DNA of 64,000 nt, from the NCBI RefSeq assembly GCF_056746865.1, contig NZ_CM163382.1. One strand, written 5' to 3'. This document shows positions 15,012 through 27,699 of this stretch, one piece after another. The notes under the pieces are model-generated. The model did not search any database. It had not been told where the DNA came from and was given only the letters and a program-made list of their open reading frames with translations. Numbering within the stretch: position 1 is the first letter of the stretch; each line of letters opens with the position of its first letter. Position numbers and translations under genes: made by a program.

Positions 15012-16745
15012 GTGAATATTCAGGCTCTTCTCTCAGAAAAAGTCCGTCAGGCCATGATTGCGGCAGGCGCGCCTGCGGATTGCGAACCGCAGGTTCGTCA
15101 GTCAGCAAAAGTTCAGTTCGGCGACTATCAGGCTAACGGCATGATGGCAGTTGCTAAAAAACTGGGTATGGCACCGCGACAATTAGCAGAGCAGGTGCTG
15201 ACTCATCTGGATCTTAACGGTATCGCCAGCAAAGTTGAGATCGCCGGTCCAGGCTTTATCAACATTTTCCTTGATCCGGCATTCCTGGCTGAACATGTTC
15301 AGCAGGCGCTGGCGTCCGATCGTCTCGGTGTTGCTACGCCAGAAAAACAGACCATTGTGGTTGACTACTCTGCGCCAAACGTGGCGAAAGAGATGCACGT
15401 CGGTCACCTGCGCTCTACCATTATTGGTGACGCAGCAGTGCGTACTCTGGAGTTCCTCGGTCACAAAGTGATTCGCGCAAACCACGTCGGCGACTGGGGC
15501 ACTCAGTTCGGTATGCTGATTGCATGGCTGGAAAAGCAGCAGCAGGAAAACGCCGGTGAAATGGAGCTGGCTGACCTTGAAGGTTTCTACCGCGATGCGA
15601 AAAAGCATTACGACGAAGATGAAGAGTTTGCCGAGCGTGCACGTAACTACGTGGTAAAACTGCAAAGCGGTGACGAATATTTCCGCGAGATGTGGCGCAA
15701 ACTGGTCGACATCACCATGACGCAGAACCAGATCACTTACGATCGTCTCAACGTGACGCTGACCCGTGATGACGTGATGGGCGAAAGCCTCTACAACCCA
15801 ATGCTGCCAGGAATTGTGGCGGATCTCAAAGCCAAAGGTCTGGCAGTAGAAAGCGAAGGGGCGACCGTTGTATTCCTTGATGAGTTTAAAAACAAGGAAG
15901 GCGAACCGATGGGCGTGATCATTCAGAAGAAAGATGGCGGCTATCTCTACACCACCACTGATATCGCCTGTGCGAAATATCGTTATGAAACACTGCATGC
16001 CGATCGCGTGCTGTATTACATCGACTCCCGTCAGCATCAACACCTGATGCAGGCATGGGCGATCGTCCGTAAAGCAGGCTATGTACCGGAATCCGTACCG
16101 CTGGAACACCACATGTTCGGCATGATGCTGGGTAAAGACGGCAAACCGTTCAAAACCCGCGCGGGTGGTACAGTGAAACTGGCCGATCTGCTGGATGAAG
16201 CCCTGGAACGTGCACGCCGTCTGGTGGCAGAAAAGAACCCGGATATGCCAGCCGACGAGCTGGAAAAACTGGCTAACGCGGTTGGTATTGGTGCGGTGAA
16301 ATATGCGGATCTCTCCAAAAACCGCACCACGGACTACATCTTCGACTGGGACAACATGCTGGCGTTTGAGGGTAATACCGCGCCATACATGCAGTATGCA
16401 TACACGCGTGTATTGTCCGTGTTCCGTAAAGCAGAAATTGACGAAGAGCAACTGGCTGCAGCTCCGGTAATCATCCGTGAAGATCGTGAAGCGCAACTGG
16501 CAGCTCGCCTGCTGCAGTTTGAAGAAACCCTCACCGTGGTTGCCCGTGAAGGTACGCCGCATGTGATGTGTGCTTACCTGTACGATCTGGCCGGTCTGTT
16601 CTCTGGCTTCTACGAGCACTGCCCGATCCTCAGCGCAGAAAACGAAGAAGTGCGTAACAGCCGTCTGAAACTGGCACAACTGACGGCGAAGACGCTGAAG
16701 CTGGGTCTGGATACGCTGGGTATTGAGACTGTAGAGCGTATGTAA
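15012..16745 (+). CDS. argS: Arginine--tRNA ligase (577 aa), GTG start
   Basis: ORF 15012..16745; HVGH (HIGH-type) class I motif; GTG at 15012. Confidence 0.97.
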
Positions 16746-24332: not shown

Positions 24333-25934
24333 TCAGGATACCACTGGCGCAATTTGTAACTGCACCGACTCATGTCGTGCTACTTCATGTTCTTCAAGGG
24401 TAAATACCGCCACACGCGACGAAAGATGGTCGGCCTGATTCGCCAGTTGTTCCGTTGCCACCGCCGCTTCTTCTACCAGCGAGGCGTTCTGCTGAGTCAC
24501 CTGATCCATCTGGCTGACAGCCTGTGCAACCTGCTCAATCCCCCGCTGTTGTTCTTCCGACGCAGAGGCAATTTCTCCCATAATGTCGTTCACGCGGGTC
24601 ACCGAACTGACAATATCGATCATGGTCGCGGCGGCGTTATTCACCAGTTTCGAACCCTGCTGGACACGATTGACTGACTCTTCGATCAGCCCTTTGATCT
24701 CTTTTGCTGCCTGCGCGCTACGGCTGGCAAGATTGCGCACTTCACCTGCCACTACCGCAAAACCACGCCCCTGCTCTCCGGCGCGAGCCGCTTCCACTGC
24801 CGCATTCAGGGCCAGAATATTGGTCTGGAAAGCAATTCCGTCGATAACGCTGATAATGTCGCCAATTTTTTGCGAGCTGGTGGCGATCTCCTGCATGGTG
24901 TGAGTCATGGTACTGACCTGAACACCGCCCGCCTGCGCCGTTGTCGCGGCATTTTTTGCCAGTTCCGACGCCTGTCGTGCGTTATCGGCGTTTTGCCCTA
25001 CCGTGGCGGTTAATTGCTCCATACTGGCGGCCGTTTGTGCCAGCGATGCCGCCTGCTGTTCGGTACGACTTGAGAGATCGTTATTGCCTGCGACAATCTC
25101 CGCGATACCAATGTGCATCTCCTGGCTTCCCTTACGCACATCACTTACCGTCCCACGCAAAGCCTGCTGCATGGTCTTCAGACTGGCAAAAATGGCGGTG
25201 ATCTCATTACGACCATATACCGCAATCGGACGCGCCAGATTACCCGCAGCAATGCTGTCAAAATGGCTACCGATAATGGCCAGTGGTTGAACAATCATCT
25301 TGCGCGTCCACCACAGCGCACTGCTGATGTAGATCGCCGCAACAATAATCATGCTGATAAACACCAGTGCCGAAATCTGATAGTTACGCTGGCTTTGCGC
25401 ACTGGCGGCTTCCAGCACATGGTTGATCTCCAGCTGCCAGGCCTCAAAGTTAACGTCAAACGCATTCTGTGATCCCTGCACCGGCGCAGTGAGGAAATCC
25501 GAAAGTTGATTACTTTCAAGCCAGGTCGCCTGATGTTCGAGATCGTTGTGCCAGCGGGCAAAACTTTTCTCCGTCTCTTTTTGCAATCCCCTGACGTGCT
25601 CGTTGCCCGCAGTCATCGCCATAAAACTTTTAAACAGCGTGGTGGATTGCGTCAGACTGGCGCGCGCCGTCGTCATCAACGTTTTAATGTCATCCGCCGG
25701 ATAGCTAAGTGCCGTCAGAGTGCCCGCTTTGTTCAGCGCGGTACTGGCCTGTAACATTACCGCCCGAGTTTGCGCTAATGCCGCACGTTGCTTATTGCTC
25801 TGCTCGACCTGATTCAGTCGTTGCAAATCGTCGCGAAATGCCCAAAAAGACATGCCGTTACTGCCAATCTGCAAGATCCCGCAGAGAATCAAAATTAAAA
25901 ACAGCGTGGTCGAAATTCGAATACGATTAAACAT
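24333..25934 (-). CDS. tap: Methyl-accepting chemotaxis protein IV Tap (dipeptide/pyrimidine receptor, 533 aa)
   Basis: ORF 24333..25937 (TTG-extended); ATG at 25934; MCP signalling domain. Confidence 0.95.
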   Translation of the reverse strand: MFNRIRISTTLFLILILCGILQIGSNGMSFWAFRDDLQRLNQVEQSNKQRAALAQTRAVMLQASTALNKAGTLTALSYPADDIKTLMTTARASLTQSTTLFKSFMAMTAGNEHVRGLQKETEKSFARWHNDLEHQATWLESNQLSDFLTAPVQGSQNAFDVNFEAWQLEINHVLEAASAQSQRNYQISALVFISMIIVAAIYISSALWWTRKMIVQPLAIIGSHFDSIAAGNLARPIAVYGRNEITAIFASLKTMQQALRGTVSDVRKGSQEMHIGIAEIVAGNNDLSSRTEQQAASLAQTAASMEQLTATVGQNADNARQASELAKNAATTAQAGGVQVSTMTHTMQEIATSSQKIGDIISVIDGIAFQTNILALNAAVEAARAGEQGRGFAVVAGEVRNLASRSAQAAKEIKGLIEESVNRVQQGSKLVNNAAATMIDIVSSVTRVNDIMGEIASASEEQQRGIEQVAQAVSQMDQVTQQNASLVEEAAVATEQLANQADHLSSRVAVFTLEEHEVARHESVQLQIAPVVS

Positions 25935-25979
25935 CAACGCTCCCCATCAGGCGGCAATGACCGCGTTAGTAAATACTCG

Positions 25980-27641
25980 TCAAAATGTTTCCCAGTTTGG
26001 ATCTTGTTCAGCAATTCGCAGTCGTGGCTGTGCCGGTGGTTGCTCACTGGCAGGACGGGATGGTGTTTGCGGTTTATTGGTGAGTGGGCTGGCTGCCAGA
26101 CGGAACGCGGAAACCGCTTGCGTTAAACGACTCGCCTGTTCTTCCAGCGCAGCGGCGGCGGCAGCTGATTCCTGCACCAGCGATGCGTTCTGTTGCGTGA
26201 CGCGATCCATTTCCGAAACCGCCAATGCGACTTGATCGATGCCACGGCTCTGTTCATCCGATGCCGATGCAATCTCGCCCATAATGTCAGTCACGCGAGT
26301 GACAGCATTGACGATATTGTTCATTGTTTCCCCGGCGCTTTCGACCAGCACCGAACCGGTATCAACGCGTGAGACGGAGTCTTCAATGAGGGCTTTGATC
26401 TCTTTTGCCGCCTGGGCGCTGCGACTGGCAAGATTACGCACTTCACCCGCCACCACGGCAAAACCACGGCCCTGTTCACCCGCACGCGCGGCTTCAACCG
26501 CGGCATTCAGCGCGAGGATATTAGTCTGGAAGGCAATACCGTCGATAACGCTGATAATGTCGGCAATTTTCTTCGAACTATCGGCGATCTCATGCATCGT
26601 TTTCACTACGCCATCCACCACTTTGCCGCCGTGCTGGGCGGTGTCGGAGGCACTTTGCGCCAGTTGCGAGGCCTGGCGGGCGTTATCGGCGTTTTGCTTC
26701 ACTGTCGCGGTGAGCTGCTCCATGCTGGCGGCAGTTTCTTCCAGCGCGGATGCCTGCTGTTCAGTACGGGAGGAAAGATCGGTGTTGCCCGCCGCAATTT
26801 CACGGGTACCGGCATAGATGGCATCTGAACCTTCGCGGACATGAGTGACGGTGTCAGTCAAAGAGCGTTGCATATGTGAAACGCTCTGCGCCAGGTCGCC
26901 CATTTCACTGCGCCCGTCAATGGTCAGGGTATTCGCCAGGTTACCACCGGCGATTTCGCGAATGTGAGCAATAATTTTTGCCAGCGGAGTAAGCAACATA
27001 CGGCGAATGCCGTACCACGCCACCAGCAGAATCAATACCACCACCAGCGCGATAACCGCCAGTTGCCACTGGGCAAATCGGTAATCATCTGCGTTGTCAG
27101 TGACGATATCGCGATACAGTTTTTCACTGCTGAGGGCGTACTGAGCAAACGCTTCGCCCATTGCATTTTGCATTCCCTGGGTTGGCTGAGCGAAATAAGC
27201 TCCAGTATTGCCATAATCTAGATAATCAATCAGTTCAGTTAACGCTGTGTAATAGTTTTTATATTTTTCATCAATATTACGACTGGTAGCGACCATTTCA
27301 GGTAACGGTGCCATGCTTTTGAATTTTTTATAATGCGTCGCTGCCTGCGCCAATGTTTTCCTGGCGCTATCGAGCAATTCAACTTTGGCGTTACTTTGTT
27401 GATTAGAGGAATCCATCATCATCCGTACCGCTGAACGACTCAGGTTAATGCGCGTTTGCAGCATTAAATCCCAGGTTGACGTCAGCTCGCCCTGCTGTTC
27501 CCGTAATTGATTGGAAACCACAAAGCTCTTCTGGCTATGGTGAAGGGAAGAAAAAAACAGACTGCCGGAAATAAGCTGTAACAGTGCGAATACCCCCAGC
27601 ACCATTACCAACAGCGTGACTACGCGGATACGGTTAATCAT
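25980..27641 (-). CDS. tar: Methyl-accepting chemotaxis protein II Tar (aspartate/maltose receptor, 553 aa)
   Basis: ORF 25980..27662; start set at [16 protein letters not shown] (plus-strand cat 27639-27641); C-terminal NWETF pentapeptide. Confidence 0.96.
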
Positions 27642-27672: not shown

Positions 27673-27699
27673 TTATCGGCAAGGAGGGGGGAAACTTTA
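27673..27699 (-). promoter_or_regulatory. Sigma-28 (FliA) class 3 promoter of the tar-tap-cheRBYZ operon
   Basis: Minus strand reads TAAAGTTT-N11-GCCGATAA, a perfect match to the sigma-28 consensus, about 30 nt upstream of the tar start. Confidence 0.85.

What the first reader, a model, noticed from the sequence alone, without database searches (positions are those of the whole stretch)
24333..27641. Tandem paralogous chemoreceptor genes tar and tap share near-identical signalling-domain sequence
The cytoplasmic methyl-accepting/signalling domains of tar (about 26050-26950) and tap (about 24400-25300) contain long stretches of very high nucleotide identity in direct orientation. This is a substrate for homologous recombination, and tar-tap fusions or deletions are known to arise. 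It also creates read-mapping and assembly ambiguity in this interval.
Basis: partly seen in the sequence, partly recalled or inferred. Interest (0 to 1): 0.25.

Follow-up and report, generated by a model that had tools for sequence, protein, structure and literature searches.

The report
Adjacent tar–tap chemoreceptor paralogs, rarely fused
These are the two well-known neighbouring E. coli chemoreceptor genes tar and tap, whose signalling halves are about 72% alike in DNA (not near-identical), which is still enough for a few natural lineages to have fused them into one hybrid gene.

Summary
The interval is E. coli tap (24333-25934, −) and tar (25980-27641, −), 100% identical to many RefSeq genomes. 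The direct-orientation similarity is real (offset 1,701 nt) but overstated.

- **Identity:** 54% nt over the whole genes and 72% over one 675-nt block. The best 165 nt reach 84%, and the longest perfect match is 24 nt. megablast finds no tar–tap hit.
- **Cause of the similarity:** synonymous sites are near saturation (dS about 1.2-1.5). Unlinked tsr is closer to tar than tap is. So protein-level selection explains it, not recent duplication or gene conversion.
- **Recombination:** supported, but rare. Exactly 3 of 5,386 complete genomes carry an in-frame Tar–Tap fusion with an exact 1,701-bp deletion. These are at least two independent events, with crossovers inside the longest (24 nt) and second-longest (18 nt) identity tracts.
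- **Common tap loss:** about 1,059 B2-type genomes lost tap through an unrelated 1,374-bp deletion inside tap, between 8-bp repeats.
- **Mapping and assembly ambiguity:** not supported. Any 100-mer differs at 15 or more positions.

The paralogy, laboratory hybrids and tap loss in the B2 phylogroup are already known. The natural fusion lineages are a modest addition.

The parts
24333..25934 (-). tap CDS (methyl-accepting chemotaxis protein IV, 533 aa; no C-terminal NWETF)
   Evidence: ORF. RefSeq annotation. NCBIfam NF007309, 1181 bits against a cut-off of 903. Pfam TarH+HAMP+MCPsignal. Translation.
25980..27641 (-). tar CDS (methyl-accepting chemotaxis protein II, 553 aa; ends in NWETF)
   Evidence: ORF. 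RefSeq annotation. NCBIfam NF011622, 1200 bits against a cut-off of 900. Pfam TarH+HAMP+MCPsignal. Translation.
25935..25979 (-). 45-nt tar-tap intergenic spacer, lost in the fusions
26145..26819 (-). tar copy of the conserved signalling-domain block (tar codons 275-499)
   Evidence: Codon alignment: 72% nt and 75% aa identity to tap over 675 nt without gaps. blastn alignment 26176-26801 at 74.4%.
24444..25118 (-). tap copy of the conserved block, exactly 1,701 nt from the tar copy
26539..26562 (.). Longest perfect tar/tap identity tract (24 nt), tar copy. It is the crossover interval of the ET474/PEC389 fusion.
   Evidence: tract. (all 223 informative sites switch here).
24838..24861 (.). 24-nt identity tract, tap copy
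26680..26697 (.). Second-longest identity tract (18 nt), tar copy. It is the crossover interval of the ETEC4088 fusion.
24979..24996 (.). 18-nt identity tract, tap copy
27673..27699 (-). Sigma-28 (FliA) class 3 promoter of the tar-tap-cheRBYZ operon: TAAAGTTT-N11-GCCGATAA
   Evidence: Pattern found. The identical sequence is listed as the FliA site of tar-tap-cheRBYZ in PMC4183435.
24434..24441 (.). 8-bp direct repeat CCTGATTC, left end of the B2-type 1,374-bp tap deletion
   Evidence: The deletion model matches EcN with 3 mismatches in 1,956 nt.
25808..25815 (.). 8-bp direct repeat CCTGATTC, right end of the B2-type tap deletion
26242..26260 (.). Imperfect (17/19) direct repeat inside tar, one end of a 222-nt in-frame tar deletion seen in other strains
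26464..26482 (.). Partner of the 17/19 repeat inside tar

Best explanation
The interval holds the two adjacent, co-oriented chemoreceptor genes tar and tap. They are the first two genes of the sigma-28-driven tar-tap-cheRBYZ operon of E. coli.

They are old paralogs. Their periplasmic sensing halves have diverged almost completely (about 39% nt identity). A 675-nt stretch encoding the cytoplasmic methylation and kinase-control hairpin stays about 72% identical in DNA, because the protein is under strong purifying selection (96% aa identity at the hairpin tip). The similarity does not come from a recent duplication or from gene conversion.

The block contains only a few short perfect tracts (24, 18 and 16 nt). 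These short tracts, lying 1,701 nt apart in direct orientation, occasionally support an in-register deletion. That deletion joins the 5' part of tar to the 3' part of tap and removes the tar 3' end, the spacer and the tap 5' end. The product is a single in-frame 535-aa Tar-Tap hybrid expressed from the tar promoter.

Shown: the gene identities, the identity profile, the existence of the fusions and the position of their junctions.

Inferred: the molecular route. With 18-24 nt of perfect identity in an otherwise 72% context, I think a RecA-independent short-homology event (replication slippage or sister-strand template switch) is somewhat more likely (about 60%) than RecA-mediated exchange at a minimal-size tract (about 40%).

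Also inferred: the hybrid should sense Tar ligands (aspartate, maltose), lose Tap functions (dipeptides, pyrimidines), and depend on Tsr for efficient adaptation, because it ends with the Tap tail that lacks NWETF.
For: Identity of the genes: 100% match to RefSeq tar/tap, NCBIfam equivalogs, Pfam architecture, and the FliA promoter.

Divergence profile.

Selection rather than homogenisation: in the block dS=1.47 and dN=0.19, and at the tip dS=1.22 and dN=0.016. tar-tsr (unlinked) is 77.5% nt identical with a 28-nt run, against 71.6% and 24 nt for tar-tap.

Fusions:
- A synthetic fusion query matched ET474, PEC389 and ETEC4088 in a single 1,999-nt piece.
- The annotation shows cheW-[one 1,608-nt 'tar']-cheR.
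- All 223 tar/tap-informative sites show one clean switch, inside the 24-nt tract (ET474, PEC389) or the 18-nt tract (ETEC4088).
- A split-flank query shows exactly 3 of 5,386 genomes with this geometry.
- If crossovers fell uniformly along the block, the chance that two events hit the top two tracts would be about 0.002-0.004.
- ET474 and PEC389 are identical over 4,999 nt, while ETEC4088 differs at 73 sites, so there were at least two events.
- The exact hybrid proteins occur on 71 and 28 contigs from NCBI, ENA and Logan, in coherent backgrounds with 0-11 differences per 5 kb.
- The hybrid ends ...QLQIAPVVS, the Tap tail, without NWETF.
Against: Only two independent fusion events are available, so the 'longest tracts' pattern rests on n=2. 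The tract lengths were measured on this window's alleles, not on the unknown parental alleles. The RecA dependence of the events cannot be read from sequence. No raw reads were inspected for the fusion genomes. The function of the hybrids is inferred from published laboratory hybrids that I could not read here. A slight excess of identical codons at identical residues in the block (0.51 observed against 0.38 expected from codon usage) is not fully explained. It may reflect site-specific codon preference or very old conversion.
Confidence: 0.88

Rival explanations
1. One reading: tar and tap carry near-identical signalling-domain DNA, from a recent tandem duplication or kept alike by gene conversion. 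This would make the pair an efficient RecA substrate and a source of mapping and assembly ambiguity.
For: Direct-orientation similarity at a fixed 1,701-nt offset. Slight excess of shared codons in the block (0.51 against 0.38 expected). Fusions do exist.
Against: The block is 72% identical, with a longest perfect run of 24 nt, and megablast finds no hit. dS is 1.2-1.5. Unlinked tsr is closer to tar than tap is. Only 3 of 5,386 genomes are fused, and essentially no second copy of the tap-specific segment is seen. 100-mers differ at 15 or more positions.
Confidence: 0.03
2. The 'natural fusions' are assembly artefacts. An assembler jumped from tar to tap at the longest shared k-mers and dropped 1.7 kb.
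For: An artefact would also break at the longest exact matches (24 and 18 nt), as observed. No raw reads were checked.
Against: Three finished chromosomes from three laboratories carry the fusions. The same exact hybrid proteins occur on 71 and 28 contigs from NCBI, ENA and Logan assemblies. Carriers fall into coherent backgrounds (0, 0 and 11 differences in 5 kb from ET474; ETEC4088 has its own background) rather than being scattered. The shared tracts are shorter than the final k used by common assemblers (own knowledge), so a path across them needs reads that contain the junction. Six genomes with the flanks lack the tap-specific segment altogether (5,386 against 5,380), which is consistent with real loss.
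Confidence: 0.05
3. The fusions arose by classical RecA/RecBCD homologous (homeologous) recombination between the 675-nt blocks of sister chromosomes. Exchange would begin at a perfect tract of minimal efficient size (about 23-27 bp by my recollection of Shen and Huang 1986). The alternative is RecA-independent slippage.
For: The more widespread fusion used the 24-nt tract, which is about that minimal size. The events are in register across a long homeologous block. Their rarity fits suppression by mismatch repair.
Against: The second event used only 18 nt. The same locus shows deletions at 8-bp and 17/19-nt repeats that cannot be RecA events, which suggests a continuum of short-repeat deletions. 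As I recall them, published work (Bi and Liu 1994; Lovett et al. 2002) finds that RecA-independent exchange dominates below about 50 bp of homology. The reciprocal duplication is not seen, although such duplications are unstable anyway.
Confidence: 0.4

Closest known systems
E. coli K-12 tar and tap (MCP II and MCP IV) of the tar-tap-cheRBYZ ('meche') operon
   Same: Same genes, order, orientation and promoter. K-12 derivatives match the interval at 99.9% and many other strains at 100%. Context is flhEAB-cheZYBR-tap-tar-cheWA-motBA-flhCD. The FliA site is identical to the published one.
   Different: Nothing of substance. This is the ordinary allele, carried intact by 4,321 of 5,426 complete genomes.
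Laboratory Tar-Tap / Tap-Tar hybrid receptors (Slocum, Halden and Parkinson 1987, J Bacteriol 169:2938; Weerasuriya, Schneider and Manson 1998, J Bacteriol 180:914)
   Same: The natural fusions have the same overall design: a Tar sensing half joined to a Tap signalling/C-terminal part. Both papers are cited as functional chemoreceptor chimeras in PMC2229510.
   Different: The natural alleles are chromosomal, inherited in wild lineages, and joined at codons ~361-368 or ~316-321 inside the signalling domain. By my recollection, the 1998 constructs were joined in the linker between the periplasmic and cytoplasmic domains. I could not read either paper here, so how the 1987 hybrids were generated is not verified.
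Loss of Tap (and truncation of Trg) in B2-phylogroup / uropathogenic E. coli (Lane et al. 2006; Borziak et al. 2013)
   Same: About 1,059 genomes here, including Nissle 1917 and SF-173, lack most of tap. This matches the published statement that Tap is lost in B2 strains (PMC12623472 and PMC3559539).
   Different: Here the lesion is resolved to a 1,374-bp in-frame deletion inside tap between 8-bp repeats (window 24434/25808). It leaves a 75-codon remnant, so tap is not 'completely lost', and the deletion did not involve tar.
tsr (MCP I), the unlinked high-abundance paralog
   Same: Same domain architecture. The same conserved block is 77.5% nt and 85% aa identical to tar.
   Different: tsr lies elsewhere on the chromosome (4.59 Mb in MG1655). 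Recombination with tar would rearrange the chromosome rather than delete 1.7 kb.

Membership tests
Methyl-accepting chemotaxis proteins (transmembrane MCPs with a four-helix-bundle sensor) | TarH ligand-binding domain + HAMP + MCPsignal domain, in that order | tested here: met
   Pfam PF02203, PF00672 and PF00015 are all above their gathering scores in Tar, Tap and the natural hybrid.
Tar (MCP II) equivalog | Full-length match to NCBIfam NF011622 above the 900-bit cut-off | tested here: met
   1200 bits over residues 1-553. RefSeq names it tar.
Tap (MCP IV) equivalog | Full-length match to NCBIfam NF007309 above the 903-bit cut-off | tested here: met
   1180.9 bits over residues 1-533. RefSeq names it tap.
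High-abundance versus low-abundance receptor classes | C-terminal NWETF pentapeptide (the CheR/CheB tether) present in Tar and absent in Tap | tested here: met
   Tar ends ...EQDPNWETF and Tap ends ...QLQIAPVVS. The hybrid ends like Tap. The role of the pentapeptide is from established literature and was not tested.
tar-tap-cheRBYZ class 3 flagellar operon | Sigma-28 promoter upstream of tar, and the gene order tar-tap-cheR-cheB-cheY-cheZ on one strand | tested here: met
   TAAAGTTT-N11-GCCGATAA at 27673-27699 (−), identical to the published FliA site. Gene order.
Near-identical tandem repeat / segmental duplication (efficient homologous-recombination and mis-mapping substrate) | Long stretches (hundreds of nt) at about 95% nucleotide identity or more | tested here: not met
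   72% over 675 nt, best 165 nt at 84%, longest perfect run 24 nt, and no megablast hit.
Short-homology deletion substrate | Direct repeats with perfect tracts of roughly 20 nt or more, and observed deletions whose junctions fall in those tracts | tested here: met
   Tracts of 24 and 18 nt lie 1,701 nt apart. Natural fusions have junctions exactly in them. The count is 3 of 5,386 genomes.
Concerted evolution / gene conversion between tandem paralogs | Lower synonymous divergence between the linked pair than between unlinked paralogs | tested here: not met
   dS is 1.47 in the block. tar is closer to the unlinked tsr than to tap.
Tar and Tap ligand specificities (aspartate/maltose; dipeptides/pyrimidines) | Behavioural or binding response to those ligands | not testable with these tools
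   Assigned by sequence identity to the characterised K-12 genes only.

The most novel reading that the evidence does not exclude
Natural in-frame Tar-Tap hybrid receptors are stably inherited in at least two wild E. coli lineages. The exact proteins occur on 71 and 28 public contigs, from animals and humans on two continents. They were created by 1,701-bp deletions whose junctions sit in the longest and second-longest perfect identity tracts (24 and 18 nt) of a 72%-identical block. Annotation pipelines call them plain 'tar', because they still pass the Tar equivalog cut-off (1049 against 900 bits), so they have gone unnoticed. If functional, these lineages sense aspartate and maltose through a receptor with a Tap-type, NWETF-less C-terminus and have lost dipeptide and pyrimidine taxis. 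That would be a natural experiment on receptor abundance classes and adaptation assistance.
Probability: 0.55. Interest if true: 0.4.

Novelty: already known. Interest (0 to 1): 0.25.

Why it matters
As stated, the finding is textbook: tar and tap are neighbouring paralogs with a conserved signalling domain. The value of the check is corrective.

- The DNA is not near-identical, so there is no mapping or assembly hazard for reads of 36 nt or more.
- The similarity is maintained by selection on the protein, not by the tandem arrangement.

The modest added value is a clean natural illustration of how little perfect identity (18-24 nt within a 72% context) suffices for an in-register gene fusion. 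It also shows that such hybrids persist in wild lineages while being annotated as ordinary tar. Anyone counting chemoreceptor repertoires from annotation would score these strains as 'tar present, tap absent' and miss that the remaining receptor is a chimera.

Tried and rejected
1. I designed the 1,999-nt synthetic fusion query expecting normal genomes not to be joined into one place. They were joined (2 pieces, 94.3% identity), so the '80% or more coverage' count was useless. The ranking still put the true single-piece fusions on top. The 600-nt split-flank query then gave the clean count.

2. I looked for the reciprocal product (tar / tap-tar hybrid / tap duplication) using the tap-specific segment. 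There were 5,382 places in 5,380 records, with at most 2 per genome. There is no evidence for it, and I did not identify the one or two genomes with two places.

3. I considered that the common 59%-coverage class (B2 strains) was a tar x tap recombinant. I rejected this. The deletion is 1,374 bp rather than 1,701 bp, lies wholly within tap, and is bounded by an 8-bp repeat.

4. I considered recent duplication or gene conversion and rejected it on dS and the tsr control.

5. I tried to read Slocum et al. 1987 (PMC212330), Weerasuriya et al. 1998 (PMC106972) and Lane et al. 2006 (PMC1540019). None is held, so their content is cited only through other papers' reference lists and text, or marked as my recollection.

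6. Full-text searches for natural tar-tap fusions found only the Δ(tar-tap) laboratory deletion, operon names and citations of the 1998 paper.

7. I did not run the large protein searches. Hybrids mostly hide inside the 90% Tar cluster, so the yield would have been low.
Full report
**What is there.** The interval contains two co-oriented minus-strand ORFs. They coincide with the RefSeq genes tap (window 24333-25934) and tar (25980-27641). The 3,330-nt stretch is 100% identical to many complete E. coli chromosomes, including ATCC 8739. The context is the classical flagellar/chemotaxis region flhEAB-cheZYBR-tap-tar-cheWA-motBA-flhCD. Both proteins have the TarH-HAMP-MCPsignal architecture. Each passes its own NCBIfam equivalog model: Tar at 1200 bits against 900, Tap at 1181 against 903. 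Tar ends in NWETF and Tap does not. A perfect sigma-28 consensus, TAAAGTTT-N11-GCCGATAA, lies at 27673-27699 (−) upstream of tar. It is letter for letter the FliA site published for tar-tap-cheRBYZ (PMC4183435).

**Checking the observation.** A direct-orientation similarity exists at a fixed offset of 1,701 nt.
- On a codon alignment, the genes are 54% identical in DNA and 47% in protein overall.
- The sensing and transmembrane half is about 39% nt identical.
- A single ungapped 675-nt block (tar 26145-26819 / tap 24444-25118) is 72% nt and 75% aa identical.
- The hairpin-tip core of 165 nt is 84% nt and 96% aa identical. The best 90-nt window reaches 86%.
- blastn gives one alignment of 634 nt at 74.4%, E=1.7e-112. 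megablast gives none.
- Perfect-identity tracts are 24, 18 and 16 nt, then 11 nt or less. Shuffled sequence gives a mean of 10.5 and a maximum of 17.

The similarity is real and far beyond chance. However, 'near-identical' and 'long stretches of very high nucleotide identity' overstate it.

**Why the block is similar.**
- Nei-Gojobori estimates give dS=1.47 and dN=0.19 for the block, and dS=1.22 and dN=0.016 for the tip core. Silent sites are close to saturation while the protein is almost frozen.
- As a control I fetched tsr from MG1655. In the same block, tar-tsr is 77.5% nt identical with a 28-nt perfect run. tar-tap is 71.6% with a 24-nt run, and tap-tsr is 69.8% with a 20-nt run.
- The unlinked paralog is therefore closer to tar than the adjacent one is. 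Adjacency has not homogenised the pair, and tap is not a recent tandem copy of tar.
- A small excess of identical codons at identical residues (0.51 against 0.38 expected from codon usage) remains unexplained but is minor.

**Testing the recombination idea in nature.** I used the 5,426 complete E. coli genomes.
- 4,321 genomes carry tar-tap intact.
- Sampling down the ranking showed a large class, with all 12 sampled rows alike, covering 59% of the query in about 1,955 bp. About 1,059 genomes hold only part of the tap-specific segment.
- In Nissle 1917 and SF-173, the lesion is a 1,374-bp in-frame deletion inside tap. It joins two copies of the 8-bp repeat CCTGATTC (window 24434 and 25808) and leaves tar untouched. 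A deletion model built from the window matches EcN with 3 mismatches in 1,956 nt.
- This is the known loss of Tap in B2/uropathogenic strains (PMC12623472, PMC3559539). It is a microhomology event, not tar x tap recombination.

**True fusions.**
- A synthetic Tar-Tap fusion query brought up three chromosomes that match it in one 1,999-nt piece. They are ET474 (frog, China), PEC389 (pig, Korea) and ETEC4088 (pig, Belgium).
- In each, a single 1,608-nt gene annotated 'tar' sits between cheW and cheR.
- I scored the 223 sites in the region where tar and tap differ. Each hybrid shows one clean switch with no exceptions. In ET474 and PEC389 it falls inside the 24-nt tract (tar 26539-26562 = tap 24838-24861). 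In ETEC4088 it falls inside the 18-nt tract (tar 26680-26697 = tap 24979-24996).
- A split-flank query can be joined only if about 1.7 kb is missing between the flanks. It found exactly these three among 5,386 genomes with the flanks.
- ET474 and PEC389 are identical over 4,999 nt, whereas ETEC4088 differs at 73 sites. There were therefore at least two independent events.
- If crossovers were uniform along the block, hitting the top two tracts with two events would have a probability of about 0.002-0.004.
- The reciprocal duplication is not seen.

**Are the fusions real?** An assembly error would also break at the longest shared k-mers, so this rival needs an answer.
- The exact hybrid proteins occur on 71 and 28 contigs from NCBI, ENA and Logan assemblies, always named MCP II.
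- Sampled carriers are in coherent backgrounds, with 0, 0 and 11 differences per 5 kb from ET474. A fourth sampled contig (L013) could not be scored, because an indel in cheR shifts its ungapped comparison.
- Six genomes with the flanks lack the tap-specific segment altogether.
- Tracts of 18-24 nt are shorter than the k-mers of common assemblers (own knowledge).

I rate the artefact explanation at about 5%. No reads were inspected.

**Mechanism.**
- Shown: short perfect tracts in direct orientation 1,701 nt apart, and deletions with junctions exactly in the two longest.
- Inferred: the route. RecA-mediated exchange at a minimal-size tract is possible for the 24-nt event. However, the 18-nt event, together with deletions in the same locus at an 8-bp repeat (tap) and at a 17/19-nt imperfect repeat (tar, see below), suggests a continuum of short-repeat deletions. 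As I recall the literature (Bi and Liu 1994; Lovett et al. 2002), RecA-independent exchange dominates below about 50 bp of homology.
- I therefore favour replication slippage or sister-strand template switching (about 60%) over homeologous RecA recombination (about 40%).
- In either case the 72% block as a whole is a poor substrate, which fits the rarity of the fusions.

**Consequences (inferred).** The hybrid keeps the following from Tar: the sensing domain, the transmembrane helices, HAMP and the first methylation helix. It takes the distal signalling half and the C-terminus from Tap, so it lacks NWETF. From the published behaviour of laboratory Tar-Tap chimeras and of low-abundance receptors (papers not readable here; cited in PMC2229510), I expect three things: Tar-type sensing, loss of Tap responses, and dependence on Tsr for adaptation. 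The hybrid still scores 1049 bits on the Tar equivalog model (cut-off 900). This explains why pipelines label it plain tar.

**Mapping and assembly ambiguity.** No tar segment of 36 nt or more is identical to its tap counterpart. The minimum number of mismatches is 2 for 36-mers, 4 for 50-mers, 8 for 75-mers, 15 for 100-mers and 23 for 150-mers.

**Comparison with what is known, and verdict.** Four things are established knowledge: the paralogy of tar and tap, the conservation of the MCP signalling domain, laboratory Tar-Tap hybrids, and Tap loss in B2 strains. The finding as written is therefore already known, and partly overstated. What I could not find in the searchable literature is the existence of natural, inherited Tar-Tap fusion alleles with junctions at the longest identity tracts. 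That is a modest, checkable addition rather than a new kind of system. Interest 0.25.

Noticed in passing
window 24442-25815 (repeats at 24434-24441 and 25808-25815); L002 1501-1728; L003: The B2-type loss of tap is a precise 1,374-bp in-frame deletion between two copies of CCTGATTC. It leaves a 75-codon ORF (Tap residues 1-42 fused to the last 33) that is intact in Nissle 1917. Eleven of the 12 sampled genomes of this class have a span 1-2 nt shorter than EcN's, and in SF-173, the only one of these inspected, the remnant is annotated as frameshifted. The exact EcN remnant peptide is seen on 15 contigs, and a 75-aa variant in the same cluster on 93. Published text says Tap is 'completely lost' in B2.
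   Followed up: partly
window 26261-26482 (repeats 26242-26260 and 26464-26482); L007 and L008 3333-4772: A 222-nt in-frame deletion inside tar removes residues 394-467, on the C-terminal side of the hairpin tip. It lies between 17/19-identical repeats encoding GEQGRG / DEQSRG. It occurs in at least 3 complete genomes of clearly different backgrounds (99.9% and 98.6% identity to the window's tar) and on 10 + 3 public contigs. It is annotated as an intact 'Tar ligand binding domain-containing protein'. It is probably a recurrent inactivating lesion.
   Followed up: partly
L004-L006 (fusion loci), protein WP_096259879.1 / WP_098723133.1: This is an annotation blind spot. The Tar-Tap chimeras pass the Tar equivalog cut-off (1049 against 900 bits) and are named 'methyl-accepting chemotaxis protein II'. 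Repertoire counts from annotation would read them as normal tar with tap absent.
   Followed up: yes
tar block 26145-26819 against tsr (L010): tar shares a 28-nt perfect run and 77.5% nt identity with unlinked tsr, more than with adjacent tap. This is why megablast of tar-tap finds 2-4 places per genome.
   Followed up: yes
hit H13, NZ_CP101233.1 (strain EC21Z-137): An IS5-like ISKpn26 element is inserted in tar, splitting it into two annotated fragments. This is another route to receptor loss at this locus.
   Followed up: no
whole locus; About 40 of 5,426 complete genomes have neither flank of the tar-tap region. Their best matches are only to aer or tsr at 60-90% identity. Presumably these are larger deletions of the chemotaxis region in non-motile lineages.
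   Followed up: no
window 15012-16745 (+) against L001 1-1413: argS is intact in the window (577-aa ORF) but annotated as frameshifted in the ATCC 8739 assembly GCF_016864475.1. So the window is not that assembly, and the frameshift there is probably a sequencing error.
   Followed up: partly
conserved block, codon level: Identical residues in the block use the identical codon in 51-55% of cases, against 38% expected from the two genes' codon usage. Outside the block the figure is 29%. Possible causes are site-specific codon preference, residual ancestral signal or very old conversion. This is not resolved.
   Followed up: no
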